DNA from: Longivirga aurantiaca
GTDB lineage: Bacteria > Actinomycetota > Actinomycetes > S36-B12 > CAIYMF01
Assembly (NCBI RefSeq): GCF_042660085.1
Contig: NZ_JBHSTI010000008.1
Span: 2,332,543 to 2,364,542, forward strand
Reading direction: 5' to 3'
DNA: 32,000 bases
In this document: positions 4,188 through 31,166 of the stretch, one piece after another
How the letters are laid out: every line of letters starts with the position of its first letter
How positions within the stretch are numbered: the first letter of the stretch is position 1
The notes under the pieces: generated by a model
Told to the model about the DNA's origin: nothing
What the model saw: only the letters and a program-made list of their open reading frames with translations
Database searches by the model: none
Translations under genes and position numbers: made by a program

Positions 4188-4740
4188 GGCCCGTGACGGC
4201 CTGGACGAGCGTCTCCTGCAGGAACGTCAGCCAGTCGTAGACGTGCACGTGCACGAACCCGGGGTCGTCCTCGTCGAGGTCGTAGAAGCCCTCGTGGTTG
4301 TCCTCGGTGAGCCCGAGCCGTGCGCCGAGGGCGAGGCGCAGGTCGTTGAGCGCACCCATCCAGGACGCGATCTCGTCGTCCGGCACGACGACCTTGCGGT
4401 CGGCCTCGGCCAGAGCACGCAGCACCGTCGCGGCATGGTTCATCTTGGTCTCGCGCAGCGACCGCTCGGTGAAGCGTCGGAACTCCGAGCTGGCCTCGTC
4501 GTCGTCGGCGTAGGCGTCGGGCAGAAGCCGCGCGAGGGCGGGGTCGTCGGGGCGCTCGGCGTCGGGGTCGATGCCGACCATCCGGGCGAGCGGGTCGGCG
4601 TCGGCGCCCCAGGGGTCGTCCTCGGGCGAGACGAGCTCGAGGACCTGGCTGACGAGCGTGGCCAGGAGCCCGCGCTCGACGTCGTCGACCTTCAGGACCA
4701 GCTTGCCCGTGGCAGTACGCCGGAAGCCGTGCACGGCCAC
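4147..4740 (-). CDS. DUF2017 domain protein (conserved actinobacterial partner of clpS)
   Basis: The 197-aa acidic ORF (..FRRFTERSLRETK..LNDLRLALGARLG..YDWLTFLQETLV) starts at GTG 4740, 1 nt after the clpS stop. This is the same arrangement as the gene next to clpS in mycobacteria. Confidence 0.85.
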   Translation of the reverse strand: MAVHGFRRTATGKLVLKVDDVERGLLATLVSQVLELVSPEDDPWGADADPLARMVGIDPDAERPDDPALARLLPDAYADDDEASSEFRRFTERSLRETKMNHAATVLRALAEADRKVVVPDDEIASWMGALNDLRLALGARLGLTEDNHEGFYDLDEDDPGFVHVHVYDWLTFLQETLVQAVTGLTSEPPPGWDEQD

Positions 4741-25057: not shown

Positions 25058-25201
25058 GTCTCAGTTCTCGAACGGAGGCTCGCGGCGCAGAGAGAGGCGT
25101 AGCCTGACTGTGCGTGAGGGATTTAGCACAAGTAGTGAGGGTGGTTCGGCCGCCCGGGTGAAGTGTTCATCCCGGTCGGTGAGTGCAAGGAGGCGGATCC
25201 C

Positions 25202-25537
25202 ATGCCCCAGCAGCCGCTGGCCCAGGTCCCTGTCGACGCCACGTGGGAGTGGCAGGAGCACGGCGCCTGCCGCGAGGCCGACACCGCGCTGTTCTTCCAT
25301 CCGCAGAACGAGCGAGGGCTGTCCCGCATCCGTCGCGACCGGGCCGCCAAGTCGGTCTGCGCCCGCTGCGAGGTGCGCCTCGAGTGCGCCGACTACGCGA
25401 TCCGCGCCCGGGAGCCGTACGGCGTCTGGGGCGGCCTGACCGAGGAGGAGCGCGAGCGCATCTACGTGAAGGCCGCGCTCACGACCTACGGCCGCGAGAA
25501 GGGCGCCGGCCTCCGCGCCGCCGTCGACCTCCTCTAG
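25202..25537 (+). CDS. whiB: WhiB family [4Fe-4S] redox-sensing transcription factor, WhiB3/WhiD-like
   Basis: WEWQEHGAC..FFHPQNERG..RRDRAAKSVCARCEVRLEC..EPYGVWGGLTEEER contains four Cys and the GVWGG turn. The FFHP..ERG and EPYGVWGGL pattern resembles M. tuberculosis WhiB3. AGGAGG lies upstream of ATG 25202. Confidence 0.9.
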   Translation: MPQQPLAQVPVDATWEWQEHGACREADTALFFHPQNERGLSRIRRDRAAKSVCARCEVRLECADYAIRAREPYGVWGGLTEEERERIYVKAALTTYGREKGAGLRAAVDLL

Positions 25538-25548
25538 CCCCACTTCTC

Positions 25549-25592
25549 GCCCTGAGGGTCGATCACGGCAGTTCGACTGCACCATCTGACCC
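25549..25592. repeat. Left arm of a terminal inverted repeat
   Basis: GCCCTGAGGGTCGATCACGGCAG (25549-25571) is the exact reverse complement of 26404-26426. The next 21 nt match the partner at 14/21 positions. Confidence 0.9.
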
Positions 25593-25629
25593 GTGCTCGT
25601 GCTCGTGTACGGCGATGTCGATGTGCGTC

Positions 25630-26253
25630 TCAGGCTGCAGCGCGCAGCGCAGCCCTGATCTCGGCCACGACATGCTGCGGCCGATGGACGACGTCGTCCC
25701 ACGTGAACCTCAGGGGGATGTACCCCGCCAGGATCAGGCGGTTCTGCCGGGTGCGGTCCCGCTGGAACGCGACGTCATCGGAACGGAACGCCCGGCCGTC
25801 GAACTCGACGACCACCCGGGACCCCTCGAGGAGCAGGTCGGCGACCGTGCGGACGAGATCCGTCGCAACCACTCCTCCCACGCGAACGAGCTCCCGGTCA
25901 CGCACCTCGATGCGATGCGCGCGCAGCCCGGGGATACGAACGCGACGGTTGCGCTCGACGATGACGTGCAGCCCCGGATCAGCGGGAACGCGCAGCTGGT
26001 GGAAGCTCCCCGCGGTCGTATGGCTGACGATCACACCGAGGCCTCCAGCAAGACGCGCCGCGTGGGCCAACGAGGTCGGCGTCAGCCTCGACGCTGTCTC
26101 GACGTACACGGATCCGAGCACGACGCTCCAGCGCCGCTGCGCGAGGAGATGGCGGATGCGGAAGTTCGTGTACCCGGCCTCGACCGCCCGCGCCCGGGTG
26201 AAGACCCCTGCTTGCTCAGCCGCGACGGCCGGCGACGTACTGATGCCTCGCAT
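25630..26253 (-). CDS. DUF559/AbiEi_4-like protein, internally shortened (probably degenerate)
   Basis: The N-terminus AEQAGVFTRARAVEAGYTNFRIRHLLAQRRW is the AbiEi-like wHTH typical of actinobacterial DUF559 proteins. The C-terminus VVVEFDGRAF..QRDRTRQNRLILAGYIPLRFTWDDV is the DUF559 tail. The usual segment between them seems to be missing. The start is taken at ATG 26253. Confidence 0.65.
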   Translation of the reverse strand: MRGISTSPAVAAEQAGVFTRARAVEAGYTNFRIRHLLAQRRWSVVLGSVYVETASRLTPTSLAHAARLAGGLGVIVSHTTAGSFHQLRVPADPGLHVIVERNRRVRIPGLRAHRIEVRDRELVRVGGVVATDLVRTVADLLLEGSRVVVEFDGRAFRSDDVAFQRDRTRQNRLILAGYIPLRFTWDDVVHRPQHVVAEIRAALRAAA

Positions 26254-26382
26254 GGTGGGACGGTGACCGGTCCGCCGACAGCACGGTGCGACACGGAAGC
26301 GGCACCTGTGGATGCCCGGGCCGCGACCGTTGCCTGTGGATCGCGACCAGCACGCGACGCTCGCGACCAAGATCACGAGTAG

Positions 26383-26426
26383 GGGTCAACTAGTTCAGTT
26401 CACCTGCCGTGATCGACCCTCAGGGC
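26383..26426. repeat. Right arm of a terminal inverted repeat
   Basis: CTGCCGTGATCGACCCTCAGGGC (26404-26426) is the reverse complement of 25549-25571. With the inner extension 26383-26403, the arms match at 37/44 positions overall. Confidence 0.9.
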
Positions 26427-26434
26427 ACACACAG

Positions 26435-26465
26435 CGAGCCCGCCCCGGGGTGCGGGGCGGGCTCG
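26435..26465. terminator. Hairpin downstream of pckG (potentially bidirectional)
   Basis: CGAGCCCGCCCCG (26435-26447), loop gggtg, CGGGGCGGGCTCG (26453-26465): a 13-bp perfect stem, 22 nt past the pckG stop codon at 26488-26490. Confidence 0.6.
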
Positions 26466-26487: not shown

Positions 26488-28302
<1,815 letters not shown>

Positions 28303-28551: not shown

Positions 28552-30219
28552 CTACGACACGAGCGGGAACGTCGTCGTCACGAGGTACGCGAGCGGCACA
28601 CCCTGCACCACCGCGACGGACCACGGCAGACGCGCCCGACGCGTCACGGTCTGGCCGTACACGAGCAGCAGCCCGAGCACGATCGCCATGAGCGGCACGA
28701 GCAGCGTCAGGAACCCTGGCGCGCCGAGCACCACCACCGACGCGAGCAGGACGACGACGGCGACCACGCGCGTCACCAGGGCGAGCCACCACCGCGCACC
28801 CACGAGCCGGTCGTCGGCCCAGAACCACGCGATGAACGCGAGCTCGACCACGAGCAGCCACGACCGCCTGTCGCCCGCGAGGTCGAACGCCGACCACGTC
28901 ATGCGGCCGACGAGCCCGAGCGCCACCACGCCGTACGCCGTCAGCGCCATCACCGCGAGCACCTCGCGCAGCACGTACCCGGACGGCGCGACGACGTCGG
29001 CGTCGACCGCGCGCGCGGGAGGCAGCCAGGACGCACGACGGCGCACGAGCGTGGTCAGGAGCGCCACCACCGCGCCGGCGCAGACGAACCACACGATGAC
29101 GTAGCCGCCGACGGCGAGCGGCACGCGTGCGGCCACCCCGGCGAGCGCCGCCGCGGCGAGCGAGCCGACGGCCGAGGCCACCACCGCGACGCCGAGGGCG
29201 ACGAGCGCGCGCGGGCGGGGCGCCTCCGCCGGCCCGCCCTCTCCTGGGGTCCGCGCGGGGAGCAGCAGCCGCGCCAACGGCACGAACCCCACGGCCGCAC
29301 CGACCATGAGCAGCAGCAGCCACAGGATGCGCGAGCCTCCGGCGTCGTGACCGGACGACGGCGCGCCCACGGTGGTGTCGAGCCAGTCGAGCGTCTGCTG
29401 GCGCGTGTCCGCCGAGAACAGGATCGTGATGTGGTCCGCACGCGGCACGACGTCGGCCGCGCGCGCCGTGCCGTCGACCGGCGAGCCGTACCCCGGGCCG
29501 ACGACCCCGTCCGGGTACGCCGCCCGCAGCCCCTCGAGCGCAGCATCGACGAACCGCTGCTGCTCGTTGCCGCCGTACAGCAGCAGGAGGTTGCGCGGCA
29601 CCAGCGCGGAACCTGCAGGCAGGTCGTCGGCCGAGGGCAGCGACAGGGCCACCGTGGCGCCGAGCGGCACCTGGCCCTCGCCCTGCGACGCCGCGACGGC
29701 GTACCGCGTGACGGCCCCCGCACCCATGGAGTGGCCGACGAGCGCGATCGGTCGCGACGGCTCGGCGAACGGCTGCTGCGACGCCCACCGTGCGACGGCG
29801 GCAAGATCCGCGTCGATCGCGTCGGTCGCGACCACGCCGTCGCTCACGGGCAGCGGCACCGGGTTGCGTCCGTGCCCGGTGAGATCGGGCAGGACGACGG
29901 CGTACCCGGCCCGGGCGAGGGAGACACCGAGGTCGTCCATGAGCTGTGCCGAGCCGGCGAAGCCGTGCACCACGACGACCACCGGATGCGGCGCGTCGCC
30001 GTCCTCTACGAGCGTCGTCACCGGCACAGCGGTGTCCGGCACCCCGGCGTCGGCGAAGCCGGGGGCGACCGAGCGCTGCACGAGCGCGGTACCGCGCTCG
30101 AGCCCGGCGCTCTGGCCCGCGAGCACGAGAGTGGCGGGCAGCGTCAGCAGGAGGGCGACGAGCCCGAGCACCCACGAGGAGAGCCGCCGCGTTCCGGTCG
30201 CCGACCGAGGGGTGCTCAT
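28552..30219 (-). CDS. Alpha/beta hydrolase domain fused to a C-terminal polytopic membrane domain
   Basis: An N-terminal TM/signal segment (RRLSSWVLGLVALLLTLPATLVLAG) is followed by the hydrolase core VVVVHGFAGS..LVGHSMGAG (nucleophile elbow GxSxG) and then ~270 aa with about 7 hydrophobic helices. The start is ATG 30219; the track ORF start (31146) is an artefact. Confidence 0.8.
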   Translation of the reverse strand: MSTPRSATGTRRLSSWVLGLVALLLTLPATLVLAGQSAGLERGTALVQRSVAPGFADAGVPDTAVPVTTLVEDGDAPHPVVVVVHGFAGSAQLMDDLGVSLARAGYAVVLPDLTGHGRNPVPLPVSDGVVATDAIDADLAAVARWASQQPFAEPSRPIALVGHSMGAGAVTRYAVAASQGEGQVPLGATVALSLPSADDLPAGSALVPRNLLLLYGGNEQQRFVDAALEGLRAAYPDGVVGPGYGSPVDGTARAADVVPRADHITILFSADTRQQTLDWLDTTVGAPSSGHDAGGSRILWLLLLMVGAAVGFVPLARLLLPARTPGEGGPAEAPRPRALVALGVAVVASAVGSLAAAALAGVAARVPLAVGGYVIVWFVCAGAVVALLTTLVRRRASWLPPARAVDADVVAPSGYVLREVLAVMALTAYGVVALGLVGRMTWSAFDLAGDRRSWLLVVELAFIAWFWADDRLVGARWWLALVTRVVAVVVLLASVVVLGAPGFLTLLVPLMAIVLGLLLVYGQTVTRRARLPWSVAVVQGVPLAYLVTTTFPLVS

Positions 30220-30282
30220 GGCGTCGGACGCTACCGCCGACGACGCGATCGCGCGCCCGCGCGGGCACCGCACCGCGTCACG

Positions 30283-30867
30283 GTGAAGCCGCGTGAGGTG
30301 GACGCGTCCGGCCGGGCGACCTGCGACGCGCGCGACCGCGTCAAACCCGCGAGATGCGCGAACGGCGCGGCCAGCGTTCCCGCATGCTTCGGCGCGCTGC
30401 GCTGCGCGATCGACAACCTCAACGGCGACAACGTCGAGCGGATCGGCTTCCCGCAGGGCAGCCGGCACGTCTTCTGCTACTACAACGCAGTGACGCCGCC
30501 GCCGGACGCCGGCACGATCGTGGTGCGCAAGCAGCTGGCGGCCGGGTCCGCGGGGACGACGGCCCTGCCCGACACGGTGGCGCTGCGCGACCCGACCACC
30601 TGCACGGTGGCCGAGACCGCGAGCGGCGTACGCAGCGAGGCCCCCGCGGTGACCACCACGATGTCGGTGAACGATGCGGACGGCGTCCGCACGACCAGCG
30701 CGTCGGTCGCGGTCGGCAGCGGTGAGCTCTCGAGCGTCGACGTCCTCAACGCGTACGACGCCCTCGCGCCCAGCGGTGCCTCGTCGGCGACGCCGGCGTA
30801 CGCGCTGGCCGGCCTGGTCCTGCTGCTGCTCGGCGCCGCGGCGTACGCCGTGGGTTCGAGGGCCTGA
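30283..30867 (+). CDS. Cys-rich hypothetical protein with a C-terminal cell-surface sorting-signal-like tail; no signal peptide, so possibly a gene remnant
   Basis: Strong GC3 bias runs from ~30340 to TGA 30865-30867. The tail is ..VDVLNAYDALAPSGASSATPAYALAGLVLLLLGAAAYAVGSRA*, that is an LAxxG-like motif, a hydrophobic helix and a basic end. The start is unresolved (GTG 30283 or 30298). This is only the last ~190 aa of the 817-aa track ORF. Confidence 0.45.
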   Translation: MKPREVDASGRATCDARDRVKPARCANGAASVPACFGALRCAIDNLNGDNVERIGFPQGSRHVFCYYNAVTPPPDAGTIVVRKQLAAGSAGTTALPDTVALRDPTTCTVAETASGVRSEAPAVTTTMSVNDADGVRTTSASVAVGSGELSSVDVLNAYDALAPSGASSATPAYALAGLVLLLLGAAAYAVGSRA

Positions 30868-30887
30868 GCGCGTCGCACGCCTGAGCC

Positions 30888-30950
30888 CGTTCCCGGGCCC
30901 GGCCCGGGAACGACCGAGCCCCCCTCGCCCGAAGGCGAGGGGGGCTCGGT
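30888..30950. terminator. Two adjacent hairpins between the convergent genes (bidirectional terminator region; serves cspA)
   Basis: Hairpin 1: CGTTCCCGGGC/GCCCGGGAACG, an 11-bp stem at 30888-30912. Hairpin 2: ACCGAGCCCCCCTCGCC, loop cgaa, GGCGAGGGGGGCTCGGT, a 17-bp perfect stem at 30913-30950. Confidence 0.6.
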
Positions 30951-30962
30951 GCGAGCGTGGTC

Positions 30963-31166
30963 TCAGACCGCGCGGACGTTCTCGGCCTGCGGGCCCTTCT
31001 GGCCCGTACCGATCTCGAACTCCACGCGCTGGTTCTCCTCGAGGGAGCGGTAGCCGCTGCCCACGATCGCCGAGAAGTGAACGAACACGTCGGTGTCCGA
31101 GCCGTCCGGCGAGATGAAGCCGAAGCCCTTCTCCGCGTTGAACCACTTGACAGTGCCCTGCGCCAT
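30963..31166 (-). CDS. cspA: Cold-shock protein (CspA family)
   Basis: [34 protein letters not shown] carries RNP1 (KGFGFI) and RNP2 (VFVHF). GAGGAG lies upstream of ATG 31166. A long upstream untranslated region is typical of csp genes. Confidence 0.95.

What the first reader, a model, noticed from the sequence alone, without database searches (positions are those of the whole stretch)
25549..26426. 878-bp segment bounded by 23-bp perfect (37/44) terminal inverted repeats, carrying a DUF559-like gene, inserted between whiB and the pckG terminator
Seen:
- 25549-25571 (GCCCTGAGGGTCGATCACGGCAG) is the exact reverse complement of 26404-26426.
- The match continues inward at 14/21 positions, giving 44-nt arms (25549-25592 and 26383-26426).
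- The inner parts of the arms are conspicuously AT-richer than the surrounding DNA.
- The arms enclose a single minus-strand ORF (25630-26253) of the DUF559/AbiEi-like type.
- The left arm starts 11 nt after the whiB stop, and the right arm ends 8 nt before the 13-bp pckG terminator hairpin (26435-26465).
- Deleting 25549-26426 in silico leaves a short convergent whiB/pckG spacer with one shared hairpin, which looks like an intact empty site.

Established: DUF559 (Vsr-like endonuclease fold) genes occur in many copies in actinobacterial genomes, but I know of no described transposition mechanism or TIRs for them.

Inference: this is a discrete, TIR-bounded cassette. It is either a non-autonomous MITE-like element mobilised in trans or an undescribed kind of selfish endonuclease element.

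Caveat: I could not find a target-site duplication. The flanks are ..cacttctc| and |acacacag..
Basis: partly seen in the sequence, partly recalled or inferred. Interest (0 to 1): 0.7.

Follow-up and report, generated by a model that had tools for sequence, protein, structure and literature searches.

The report
Repeat-bracketed, decaying DUF559 nuclease cassette
A small gene for a DNA-binding nuclease, crippled here by an internal deletion, sits just behind pckG between two mirror-image copies of a hairpin repeat, and this bracketed layout recurs across much of the uncharacterised actinobacterial gene family, so it looks like a resident self-regulating or selfish cassette rather than an active transposon.

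Summary
The inverted repeat is real. The outer 23 nt are perfect, and the arms run to 59 nt at 81% (25549-25607 / 26368-26426). They enclose a 207-aa ORF identical to a Longivirga aurantiaca DUF559 protein.

The ORF is an in-frame deletion derivative, missing 92 codons and the nuclease core, of a 299-aa protein. That protein is a full AbiEi-like DNA-binding antitoxin fold fused to a Vsr-like nuclease.

The unit is not recently mobile. Intact orthologues with the same arms lie directly after pckG in every close relative examined. More distant relatives have an empty site with a single hairpin.

The arms evolve about four times slower than synonymous sites, and both arms change together.

The arms belong to a REP-like dispersed intergenic repeat family. 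The family also flanks housekeeping genes and forms REPIN-like doublets.

Flanking repeats are common in the gene family. 41% of 39 distant DUF559 paralogue loci have strong flanking inverted repeats, against 0 of 135 neighbouring genes. 42 of 56 carry a YYGTCCACAG box upstream, which looks like a DnaA box or an AbiEi operator.

Best reading: an autoregulated nuclease cassette that co-evolves with hairpin repeats, analogous to RAYT/REPIN. The window holds a decaying copy. The mechanism is inferred, not shown.

The parts
25202..25537 (+). whiB (111 aa; an alternative GTG start lies at 25163). It is the convergent right-hand neighbour, and its stop codon is 11 nt from the arm.
   Evidence: Pfam Whib, E 2e-24. 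The identical 111-aa protein is encoded on 22 contigs read (62 index blocks).
25549..25611 (+). Arm 1, on the whiB side and 3' of the DUF559 gene. It is a degenerate copy of the REP-like repeat, reading from the hairpin centre (CCCTGAGGG) through HP2 (GCAGTTCGACTGC) to the tail.
   Evidence: Inverted-repeat arm 25549-25607. nhmmer hit 25550-25611, E 9e-7, profile positions 9-71. Aligned with 74 other arms. It does not fold better than shuffles, z -0.9.
25630..26253 (-). Truncated AbiEi-like/DUF559 gene (207 aa). It keeps the N-terminal AbiEi-like region (about the first 142 residues) and the last ~65 residues of the nuclease domain.
   Evidence: 100% identical to the NCBI Longivirga aurantiaca DUF559 protein. 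Pfam DUF559 is partial. The alignment to 299-aa orthologues shows 92 residues missing. dN/dS is 0.11 against L001. GC3 is 0.83 for the 248-aa extended ORF, against 0.92-0.98 in the neighbouring called genes apart from the 28552-31146 ORF.
25835..25845 (-). Junction of the 276-bp in-frame deletion, lying between short direct repeats (…CCGACCTCCTGCTG… and …TCGACCTGCTG… in intact orthologues).
   Evidence: DNA alignment of the window against L001/L002. The microhomology was read from that alignment.
26305..26340 (-). Two direct TCCACAGG boxes (26305-26312 and 26333-26340 on the + strand as CCTGTGGA), 28 nt apart and 52-87 nt upstream of the ATG. They are candidate operators, either AbiEi-type or DnaA-box-like.
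   Evidence: Motif positions. They are conserved islands in an otherwise diverged spacer. The hexamer is enriched upstream of 42 of 56 paralogues.
26362..26426 (-). Arm 2, on the pckG side and 5' of the DUF559 gene. It is a degenerate copy of the same repeat in inverted orientation.
   Evidence: Inverted-repeat arm 26368-26426. nhmmer hit 26426-26362, E 3e-13, profile positions 8-73.
26435..26465 (-). pckG terminator-like hairpin (perfect 13-bp stem, 5-nt loop). It lies outside the unit.
   Evidence: Inverted repeat I6. It is conserved in L001 and L003. The empty site in L225 has one analogous hairpin.
26488..28302 (-). pckG (GTP-dependent PEP carboxykinase), the left-hand anchor gene. The cassette always follows it on the same strand.
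   Evidence: Pfam PEPCK_N and PEPCK_GTP. tblastn synteny.

Best explanation
The segment is one copy, here decaying, of a conserved chromosomal cassette.

**The cassette.** It encodes a single protein made of a complete AbiEi-type DNA-binding antitoxin fold fused to a Vsr-like (DUF559) nuclease. Upstream lie one or two YYGTCCACAG boxes. The whole is bracketed by two inverted copies of a ~60-75-nt hairpin-bearing repeat.

**Shown**
- The cassette has sat directly after pckG throughout this clade.
- It is absent, leaving a clean one-hairpin site, in more distant relatives.
- Its arms are under purifying selection and both arms change in concert.
- The arms belong to a REP-like intergenic repeat family that is dispersed elsewhere in related genomes.
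- Repeat brackets and the upstream box recur in distantly related paralogues with unrelated arm sequences.

**Inferred**
- The AbiEi-like domain binds the paired boxes and represses its own gene, as AbiEi and Rv2827c do at paired 23-bp repeats.
- The border hairpins are also recognised by the cassette's protein. Gene and repeats would then co-evolve in the way a RAYT co-evolves with its flanking REP/REPIN sequences.
- The nuclease is the effector. It could be a toxin or defence activity, or it could act on the repeats.

**In Longivirga.** A 276-bp deletion removed the nuclease core, and the arms have lost their outer hairpin. This copy can at most still bind DNA.
For: **Anatomy in the window:**

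**Same locus in relatives**
- Intact 299-309-aa orthologues with arms follow pckG in L001/2, L003, L005, L006, L011-L015, L093-98 and L221.
- PckG is 88-97% identical across these, while DUF559 is 51-88% identical.

**Selection on the arms**
- JC distance is 0.14-0.19, against 0.62 for the spacer, 1.8 for the stretch from stop to arm, and dS 0.69.
- Lineage-specific changes are shared by both arms: TGAGG/TTAGG, CACGG/CAAGG, AGGGTCGATC/AGGCTGATC/AGGGACGATC.

**Empty sites:**

**Dispersed repeat family**
About 60 of them carry true arms.
- nhmmer finds 135 hits in the DNA held.
- Doublets with 40-54-nt spacers occur in L220, L116 and L133.
- Arms of the window's type lie 3' of genes I read as smpB and purM.
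- Neighbouring genes are diverse housekeeping genes and no transposase recurs.
- The outer hairpin is supported by covariation: 10 of 12 pairs have compensatory changes, and 0 of 500 shuffles reach the observed value.

**Trait across paralogues**
- Flanking inverted-repeat score >=45 occurs in 41% of 39 DUF559 paralogue loci and in 0 of 135 neighbouring genes. Mann-Whitney P is 3e-9.
- TCCACA occurs upstream in 42 of 56 loci, at 4.3/kb against 0.15-0.19/kb. Copies are often paired 27-28 nt apart.

**Protein**
- PADLOC AbiEi, E 1e-21.
- AF2 model, pLDDT 85.
- Foldseek matches AbiEi 6Y8Q (E 4e-6), and the nuclease domains 3R3P and 3HRL at TM 0.75-0.80.

**Operator geometry:** known AbiEi operators have comparable spacing (PMC7319586).

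**Independent hint:** DUF559 proteins are enriched among predicted inversion targets (PMC9881135).
Against: - No binding or cleavage was tested. The link between the protein and the arms is purely associative.
- Orthologous pckG loci are not independent observations, because the arms were inherited together with the gene.
- The arms of the window type lack the TCCACA box. Only 23 of 75 arms carry it.
- In other lineages the flanking repeats were not seen elsewhere. Only ~8 kb per genome was available, so dispersal is shown for one clade only.
- Outside the cassette, no arm occurs in ~85 kb of DNA from DUF559-bearing loci. The apparent abundance in arm-selected contigs is therefore partly an ascertainment effect.
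- The box matches the actinobacterial DnaA box (TTGTCCACA; PMC4285127). The host's DnaA, rather than the cassette's own protein, may be what binds it.
- A nuclease alone gives no obvious way to copy repeats to new sites.
Confidence: 0.5

Rival explanations
1. Chance juxtaposition. The arms are ordinary REP-like 3'-intergenic elements belonging to whiB and pckG. The DUF559 gene merely lies between two convergent genes that each carry one, with no functional link.
For: - The same repeat sits directly after the stop codons of unrelated housekeeping genes, with the hairpin side facing a gene's 3' end in 58 of 82 cases.
- Each window arm does face the 3' end of a flanking gene.
- The downstream neighbour of DUF559 is convergent in 70% of loci.
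Against: - Strong flanking repeat pairs occur at 41-56% of DUF559 paralogues with unrelated arm sequences, against <1% of their neighbours.
- In ~85 kb around the pckG-linked orthologues, the only arms present are the two that bracket DUF559.
- pckG already has its own terminator hairpin.
- Empty sites lack arms altogether.
Confidence: 0.15
2. Free-standing homing-endonuclease-like selfish gene. The nuclease once cut a palindromic intergenic target, such as a tail-to-tail repeat doublet or a terminator. The gene was copied into the break, and the two arms are the split halves of that target.
For: - The nuclease domain resembles the homing endonuclease I-Bth0305I (3R3P, TM 0.75).
- The same site is occupied in some lineages and empty in others, and degenerate copies exist: the window deletion and the frameshifted L092.
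- The gene evolves faster than its flanks.
- The same site is occupied in opposite orientation in Actinotalea.
- Doublets with 40-54-nt spacers exist as potential targets.
- The gene shows a preference for convergent junctions.
Against: - Split target halves should decay neutrally, but the arms are conserved and change in concert.
- Empty sites show no arm doublet.
- Orthologues track pckG divergence without sporadic distribution within the clade.
- In mycobacterial paralogues each arm is a complete hairpin, not a half.
Confidence: 0.15
3. RNA-level device. The two arms pair in a read-through transcript to form a long 5'-3' stem enclosing the ORF, for RNase III processing or translational control of a toxic nuclease.
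For: - Arms of 59-84 nt are 81-98% complementary.
- Concerted changes keep the complementarity.
Against: - Mismatches in the outer hairpin show no G-U bias on the arm's HP1-to-tail strand: 30 G·T against 58 A·C.
- The same repeat occurs singly and next to unrelated genes.
- Arm 2 lies upstream of the conserved boxes and immediately after the pckG terminator, so it is probably not in the gene's own transcript.
- No Rfam family matches.
Confidence: 0.07
4. One reading: a terminal-inverted-repeat transposon or MITE-like element that is, or recently was, mobilised.
For: - There are terminal inverted repeats.
- Dispersed arms and short arm-arm doublets resemble MITEs derived from a longer element.
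- Internally deleted copies exist, such as the window.
Against: - There is no target-site duplication.
- The complete unit is found at one conserved locus only.
- Paralogues are syntenic between species.
- No transposase domain is present.
- No copies are on plasmids or viral contigs.
- dS of 0.7-1.6 between copies at the same locus indicates long residence.
Confidence: 0.05
5. Invertible switch. The arms are recombination sites that flip the gene.
For: - The arm-gene-arm segment is inverted relative to the same flanks in L020 and L026 compared with L019, L030, L039, L043 and L050.
- DUF559 proteins are enriched among predicted programmed-inversion targets (PMC9881135).
Against: - All pckG-linked orthologues have the same orientation.
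- There is no adjacent recombinase.
- Flipping a gene together with its own promoter region has no obvious effect.
- The inverted copies differ greatly in sequence (73% over only 200 nt). That fits an old event or a replacement, not switching.
Confidence: 0.05

Closest known systems
RAYT / REP-REPIN systems (REP-associated tyrosine transposases flanked by REP sequences; from my own knowledge of Nunvar 2010 and Bertels & Rainey 2011)
   Same: - The gene is single-copy, vertically inherited and syntenic, and is bracketed by two inverted copies of a short hairpin repeat.
- The repeat is otherwise dispersed in intergenic regions, often just after stop codons and often as inverted doublets.
- The repeat sequence type matches between the gene's flanks and the dispersed copies of the same lineage.
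- Each paralogue has its own repeat type.
   Different: - The encoded protein is not an HUH/Y1 transposase. It is an AbiEi-like winged-helix protein fused to a Vsr-like PD-(D/E)xK nuclease.
- The repeat unit is longer (60-75 nt, two to three hairpins plus a conserved linear tail).
- Dispersal is shown for one clade only.
- No activity on the repeats has been shown.
AbiE type IV toxin-antitoxin / abortive-infection system (the AbiEi antitoxin of S. agalactiae; Rv2827c of M. tuberculosis)
   Same: - The N-terminal ~195 residues have the complete two-domain AbiEi fold (6Y8Q).
- AbiEi and Rv2827c autoregulate by binding paired 23-bp repeats within ~130 nt upstream of the start. The spacing is comparable to the paired TCCACAG boxes here (27-28 nt).
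   Different: - There is no AbiEii (DUF1814 nucleotidyltransferase) partner. A nuclease domain is fused in cis instead.
- A further repeat copy lies downstream of the gene.
- Binding has not been tested.
Free-standing / Vsr-like homing endonucleases (I-Bth0305I, PDB 3R3P)
   Same: - The catalytic domain has a similar fold.
- The gene sits in an intergenic site beside a highly conserved gene.
- There is presence/absence polymorphism at that site, and degenerate copies exist.
   Different: - It is not in phage or intron contexts.
- The flanks are conserved hairpin repeats rather than decaying target halves.
- There is long stable vertical residence.
MITEs / terminal-inverted-repeat transposons
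   Same: - Terminal inverted repeats bound the unit.
- Short repeat-only doublets and internally deleted copies exist.
   Different: - There is no target-site duplication and no transposase.
- The full unit is at one conserved locus.
REP/BIME-type intergenic palindromic repeats in general
   Same: - The arms are intergenic and bear hairpins with compensatory changes.
- They lie close to stop codons.
- They are used as an insertion target by an IS (the IS1380-like element in L192).
   Different: - This is a new sequence family in Sporichthyales/Nanopelagicales-like actinobacteria, with no Rfam family.
- Part of the family carries a DnaA-box-like GTCCACAA.

Membership tests
Terminal-inverted-repeat transposon / MITE | Terminal inverted repeats | tested here: met
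   59-nt arms at 81% complementarity, with the outer 23 nt perfect.
Terminal-inverted-repeat transposon / MITE | Target-site duplication flanking the element | tested here: not met
   The flanks are cacttctc| and |acacacag. No duplication is present in L001 or L221 either.
Terminal-inverted-repeat transposon / MITE | Several copies of the unit at different loci with conserved ends | tested here: not met
   The complete unit is found only after pckG. Only the arms are dispersed. The Longivirga genome beyond the 32-kb window could not be searched.
Terminal-inverted-repeat transposon / MITE | Encodes a transposase, or is mobilised by one | tested here: not met
   The only domains found are AbiEi-like and DUF559. 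No transposase recurs next to the dispersed arms.
RAYT/REPIN system | Short hairpin repeats dispersed in intergenic regions, including inverted doublets | tested here: met
   Seen in related metagenome contigs. Doublets occur in L220, L116 and L133.
RAYT/REPIN system | A single-copy, vertically inherited gene flanked by the repeats in inverted orientation | tested here: met
RAYT/REPIN system | The flanked gene encodes an HUH/Y1 (IS200/IS605-like) transposase | tested here: not met
   The protein is AbiEi-like plus a Vsr-like nuclease.
RAYT/REPIN system | The protein binds or cleaves the repeats | not testable with these tools
   This needs biochemistry.
AbiE type IV toxin-antitoxin system | AbiEi two-domain antitoxin (winged helix-turn-helix plus C-terminal domain) | tested here: met
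   PADLOC AbiEi E 1e-21 over residues 10-178. Foldseek 6Y8Q E 4e-6 over 194 columns.
AbiE type IV toxin-antitoxin system | Adjacent AbiEii (DUF1814) nucleotidyltransferase toxin | tested here: not met
   The neighbours are pckG and whiB, OTCase or DUF2516.
AbiE type IV toxin-antitoxin system | Autoregulation through paired repeats in the promoter | tested here: inconclusive
   Conserved paired TCCACAG boxes lie 27-28 nt apart, 47-135 nt upstream. The geometry is comparable to published operators. There are no binding data.
DUF559 / Vsr-like PD-(D/E)xK nuclease | Complete nuclease domain with conserved core residues | tested here: not met
   For the window copy, Pfam covers only profile positions 41-108 of 109 and 92 residues are deleted. 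The feature is met in the orthologues P0002-P0005.
Free-standing homing endonuclease | Occupied and empty alleles of the same site | tested here: met
   Occupied in L006 and L221. Empty in L225-227, at the same pckG-OTCase junction.
Free-standing homing endonuclease | The enzyme cleaves the empty site | not testable with these tools
   This needs biochemistry.
Programmed inversion (inverton) | Both orientations observed, plus a dedicated recombinase | tested here: not met
   The pckG-linked copies all have one orientation. An inversion is seen only between species at the Actinotalea paralogue. No recombinase is nearby.
DnaA box | Match to the actinobacterial high-affinity box TTGTCCACA | tested here: inconclusive
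   The window boxes match 6 of 9 positions (CGATCCACA, GCATCCACA). Perfect TTGTCCACA or TTATCCACA occurs upstream of several paralogues. The consensus is taken from PMC4285127. The conserved trailing G is not part of the DnaA box.

The most novel reading that the evidence does not exclude
AbiEi-DUF559 proteins form a large actinobacterial family (about 4,600 cluster representatives at E<=1e-10). They would be a non-HUH counterpart of RAYTs: domesticated, autoregulated nucleases that recognise, maintain and spread their own lineage-specific hairpin repeats. Their expression, or their targets, would be tied to DnaA-box-like sequences and so to replication initiation.
Probability: 0.15. Interest if true: 0.85.

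Novelty: new variant of a known kind. Interest (0 to 1): 0.6.

Why it matters
DUF559/AbiEi_4 proteins are among the most multiplied uncharacterised genes in Actinobacteria, mycobacteria included, and nothing found in the paper library searched here explains them.

Three regularities appear here that I could not find described:
- Strong repeat brackets recur across the family.
- A conserved YYGTCCACAG box lies upstream. It coincides with the actinobacterial DnaA box and has AbiEi-operator-like spacing.
- In one clade the bracket repeats are identical with a REP-like dispersed repeat family.

Together these turn "function unknown" into testable hypotheses: autoregulation by the fused AbiEi domain, nuclease action on hairpin repeats, and a link to DnaA. 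They also suggest that REP-like repeats may have protein partners other than RAYTs.

The window copy on its own is an ordinary decaying gene.

Tried and rejected
- **Known RNA families.** Rfam gave nothing for the window region or for canonical arms. The only hit was a chance-level lysM-Actino match, 21 bits against a gathering score of 154.
- **Consensus RNA structure.** RNAalifold on 75 arms kept only 3 pairs, because many arms have a degenerate 5' half. The named-structure count was used instead.
- **Alternative pairing GGGNC/GNCCC within arms.** It looked promising by eye but is not consistently compensated. Dropped.
- **Strand test for an RNA hairpin.** There is no G·U excess on the arm's HP1-to-tail strand.
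- **Promoter and terminator consensus scans.** No hits.
- **Other copies of the arm in the window.** None, even for sub-motifs.
- **WhiB look-up with the 124-aa GTG start.** Nothing found. The 111-aa form worked.
- **Arms of other lineages elsewhere in the loci held.** Only the DUF559 flanks were found.
- **Phage and plasmid carriage.** None.
- **NCBIfam.** No family.
- **Literature.** No paper was found linking DUF559 with AbiEi or with flanking repeats.
- **PafBC/RecA-NDp and LexA boxes.** Considered for the upstream motif from memory and rejected as poor matches.
Full report
**1. The observation**

The 23-mer GCCCTGAGGGTCGATCACGGCAG occurs at 25549-25571 (+) and 26404-26426 (-). It occurs nowhere else in the window at up to three mismatches, and never in shuffles. 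The repeat finder extends the arms to 59 nt at 81% complementarity: 25549-25607 and 26368-26426.

The inner parts of the arms are AT-richer, at 0.61 and 0.47 GC against 0.72 for the window. The distances to the whiB stop (11 nt) and to the perfect 13-bp hairpin at 26435-26465 (8 nt) are as stated. There is no target-site duplication.

**2. The gene**

ORF 25630-26253 (-) is identical to a protein NCBI names 'DUF559 domain-containing protein [Longivirga aurantiaca]'. Pfam DUF559 covers only profile positions 41-108 of 109.

The closest relatives are 299 aa. The window copy lacks 92 residues in frame, or 276 bp, between short direct repeats. The deletion removes the linker and the first half of the nuclease domain.

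Full-length orthologues have two parts:
- **N-terminal ~195 residues.** These have the complete two-domain fold of the AbiEi antitoxin. PADLOC AbiEi gives E 1e-21. The AF2 model has pLDDT 85. Foldseek matches 6Y8Q at E 4e-6.
- **C-terminal ~100 residues.** These form a Vsr-like nuclease. The profile search matches PDB 3HRL at E 4e-6. By fold, 3HRL and the homing endonuclease I-Bth0305I (3R3P) match at TM 0.75-0.80.

The family is large: 4,580 representatives at E<=1e-10. The retained codons of the window copy have dN/dS 0.11 against L001, the same as between intact copies. So the deletion is either recent or the DNA-binding remnant is still useful.

**3. Not a recent insertion**

Intact orthologues lie directly downstream of pckG, on the same strand, in every close relative examined. 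This holds whatever follows them: whiB, or DUF2516, OTCase and an arginine deiminase operon. PckG is 88-97% identical across these loci. DUF559 is 51-88% identical.

More distant relatives have no DUF559:
- PckG 84%: pckG is followed by a 60-nt spacer holding one perfect 17-bp-stem hairpin, then the convergent OTCase gene.
- PckG 86%: an unrelated 169-aa ORF is in that place.
- PckG 82%: the locus is rearranged.

Synonymous divergence between occupied loci is 0.7-1.6. Two lineages show decay: the window deletion, and L092, which is frameshifted and has lost the pckG-side arm.

**4. The arms are conserved and change together**

All orthologues have the inverted pair, with arms of 46-84 nt.

Between the window and L001, distances are as follows:

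| Region | JC distance |
|---|---|
| Arms | 0.14-0.19 |
| Arm-to-ATG spacer | 0.62 |
| Stop-to-arm stretch | 1.8 |
| Synonymous sites (dS) | 0.69 |

Lineage-specific substitutions are shared by both arms of a locus.

**5. What the arms are**

About 60 of these are true family members. A profile finds 135 hits in the DNA held.

The canonical unit has three parts:
- an outer perfect hairpin, (CC)TTGATCGTCCC-TTA-GGGACGATCAA(GG);
- a variable second hairpin;
- a conserved tail, GTCCACAAnTCGTGATCTTGG.

It folds far better than shuffles, z -3.6 to -5.9. The outer hairpin has compensatory changes at 10 of 12 pairs, with 0 of 500 shuffles as high.

Units occur in several arrangements:
- singly;
- as tail-to-tail doublets with 40-54-nt spacers;
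- back-to-back, sharing the outer hairpin;
- on either side of housekeeping genes.

Housekeeping neighbours include photolyase, a PIG-L-like deacetylase, a GNAT-like acetyltransferase, phosphoglycerate mutase, ffh, gyrB, groES and others. No transposase recurs.

The units are intergenic, and the hairpin end faces a gene's 3' end in 58 of 82 cases. Arms of the window's sequence type also lie just after the stops of genes I read as smpB and purM from their C-termini.

This is REP-like behaviour, and no Rfam family matches. The window's two arms start at the hairpin centre, have lost the outer stem, and do not fold significantly. They are degenerate copies.

**6. The bracket is nevertheless specific to DUF559**

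In about 85 kb around the pckG-linked orthologues, including the whole 32-kb window, the only arms are the two that bracket the gene.

Independent evidence comes from paralogues. 39 analysable loci of distant DUF559 paralogues (30-40% identity) from Mycobacterium, Actinotalea/Cellulomonas, Kineosporiaceae and others were scored. Of these, 41% have a flanking inverted-repeat score >=45. Counting inverted or direct repeats, the figure is 56%. Their neighbouring genes give 0 of 135 and 1 of 135 respectively. Mann-Whitney P is 3e-9 and 2e-12.

The arm sequences are unrelated between subfamilies. The layout is constant: the left arm is ~75-150 nt before the start, and the right arm abuts the stop. 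Those paralogues are also syntenic between species.

They sit preferentially where the downstream neighbour is convergent, in 70% of loci against 29% expected, P 6e-10.

At one Actinotalea/Cellulomonas locus the arm-gene-arm segment is inverted between species, and flank homology ends at the arms. Milman et al. 2023 list DUF559 proteins as enriched among predicted inversion targets, without comment (PMC9881135).

**7. A conserved upstream box**

The spacer between arm 2 and the ATG is diverged except for two TCCACAGG boxes 28 nt apart.

The hexamer TCCACA occurs within 220 nt upstream of 42 of 56 paralogues. That is 4.3/kb against 0.15-0.19/kb elsewhere. The extended motif is YYGTCCACAG, often as two copies 27-28 nt apart, 47-135 nt before the start.

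This coincides with the high-affinity DnaA box of M. tuberculosis and S. coelicolor, TTGTCCACA (PMC4285127).

It also fits the geometry of AbiEi-type operators. AbiEi binds two 23-bp repeats 3 bp apart. Rv2827c binds four within -1 to -131 (PMC7319586).

In mycobacterial paralogues the left arm is itself an inverted pair of such boxes, 35 nt apart. 23 of 75 dispersed arms carry the box in their tail. The window-type arms do not.

**8. Interpretation**

*Shown.* This is a discrete, old, vertically inherited cassette. Its border repeats are under selection and belong to a REP-like family. The repeat brackets and the upstream box recur across the gene family. The window copy is decaying.

*Inferred.*
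- The fused AbiEi-like domain binds the boxes and autoregulates the gene.
- The same protein recognises the border hairpins, so that gene and repeats co-evolve as RAYTs do with REP/REPINs.
- The nuclease domain is the effector.

I put about 0.5 on this package. Most of the doubt lies in the protein-arm link.

*Rivals.*
- Chance juxtaposition of REP-like 3' elements: 0.15.
- A homing-endonuclease-like selfish gene in a palindromic target: 0.15.
- A long 5'-3' RNA stem: 0.07.
- An active terminal-inverted-repeat transposon or MITE: 0.05.
- An invertible switch: 0.05.

**9. Novelty**

The parts are known kinds: REP-like repeats, the AbiEi fold and a Vsr-like nuclease. The combination was not found described. 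That combination is an AbiEi-nuclease fusion gene that is often bracketed by inverted hairpin repeats and preceded by a DnaA-box-like operator.

I class it as a new variant of a known kind. The window instance itself is a degenerate copy.

Noticed in passing
L192:11008-12794 (also L158:50-132): A 464-aa ORF that reads like an IS1380-family transposase (judged by eye, not checked against Pfam) sits exactly in the centre of an outer hairpin of the repeat. The two flanking arms start at profile position 11, and their 5' halves are replaced by GGTGGATCGAGGC. An IS appears to target the hairpin loop.
   Followed up: partly
window 26305-26312 and 26333-26340; upstream of 42 of 56 DUF559 paralogues (L011-L090): The conserved upstream motif YYGTCCACAG equals the actinobacterial DnaA-box consensus TTGTCCACA, with perfect TTGTCCACA or TTATCCACA in several loci. 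It is unclear whether DnaA or the cassette's own AbiEi-like domain binds it.
   Followed up: partly
L039:3314-4430 versus L020:3096-4564 (also L026): The arm-DUF559-arm segment is inverted between Actinotalea species relative to the same flanking genes. The gene is far more diverged (73% over 200 nt) than the flanks (81-88%).
   Followed up: partly
L092:3864-5024: The pckG-linked DUF559 gene is a pseudogene here. Profile hits fall in two reading frames with a duplicated segment. The pckG-side arm is missing while the whiB-side arm is intact.
   Followed up: partly
window 25630-26376 versus neighbouring genes: Third-position GC of the DUF559 ORF is 0.83 (measured on the 248-aa extended ORF). 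whiB, DUF179, pckG and the other called genes are at 0.92-0.98. The exception is the 864-aa ORF at 28552-31146, which is also at 0.83.
   Followed up: no
L014:3361-3400 and 4525-4570: Short tandem repeats, (GGTGCG)n and (GGTGGTT)n, directly abut the inner side of one arm and the outer side of the other.
   Followed up: no
L222:4838-5347: In a lineage without DUF559, a 169-aa ORF with no Pfam match occupies the place between pckG and OTCase. Its sequence starts like a lipoprotein signal and is rich in Pro/Ser/Thr.
   Followed up: no
L221:2450-2735: There is a sub-threshold Rfam hit to the cspA thermoregulator (42 bits, gathering score 78, E 4e-8) over the cold-shock gene upstream of pckG. The same CSD gene precedes pckG in several related loci.
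   Followed up: no
L208:3446-4636: A distant DUF559 paralogue from the arm-rich community has its own, different bracket. GGGGCGGTAACGACGG appears upstream as a hairpin and again just after the stop. It also has a TTGTCCATA box.
   Followed up: partly
L015, L093, L096, L098 (for example L015:3345-3399 and 4393-4447): In one sub-lineage the arms are 55-nt complete hairpins with compensatory differences between the two copies. The left one doubles as the pckG terminator.
   Followed up: no
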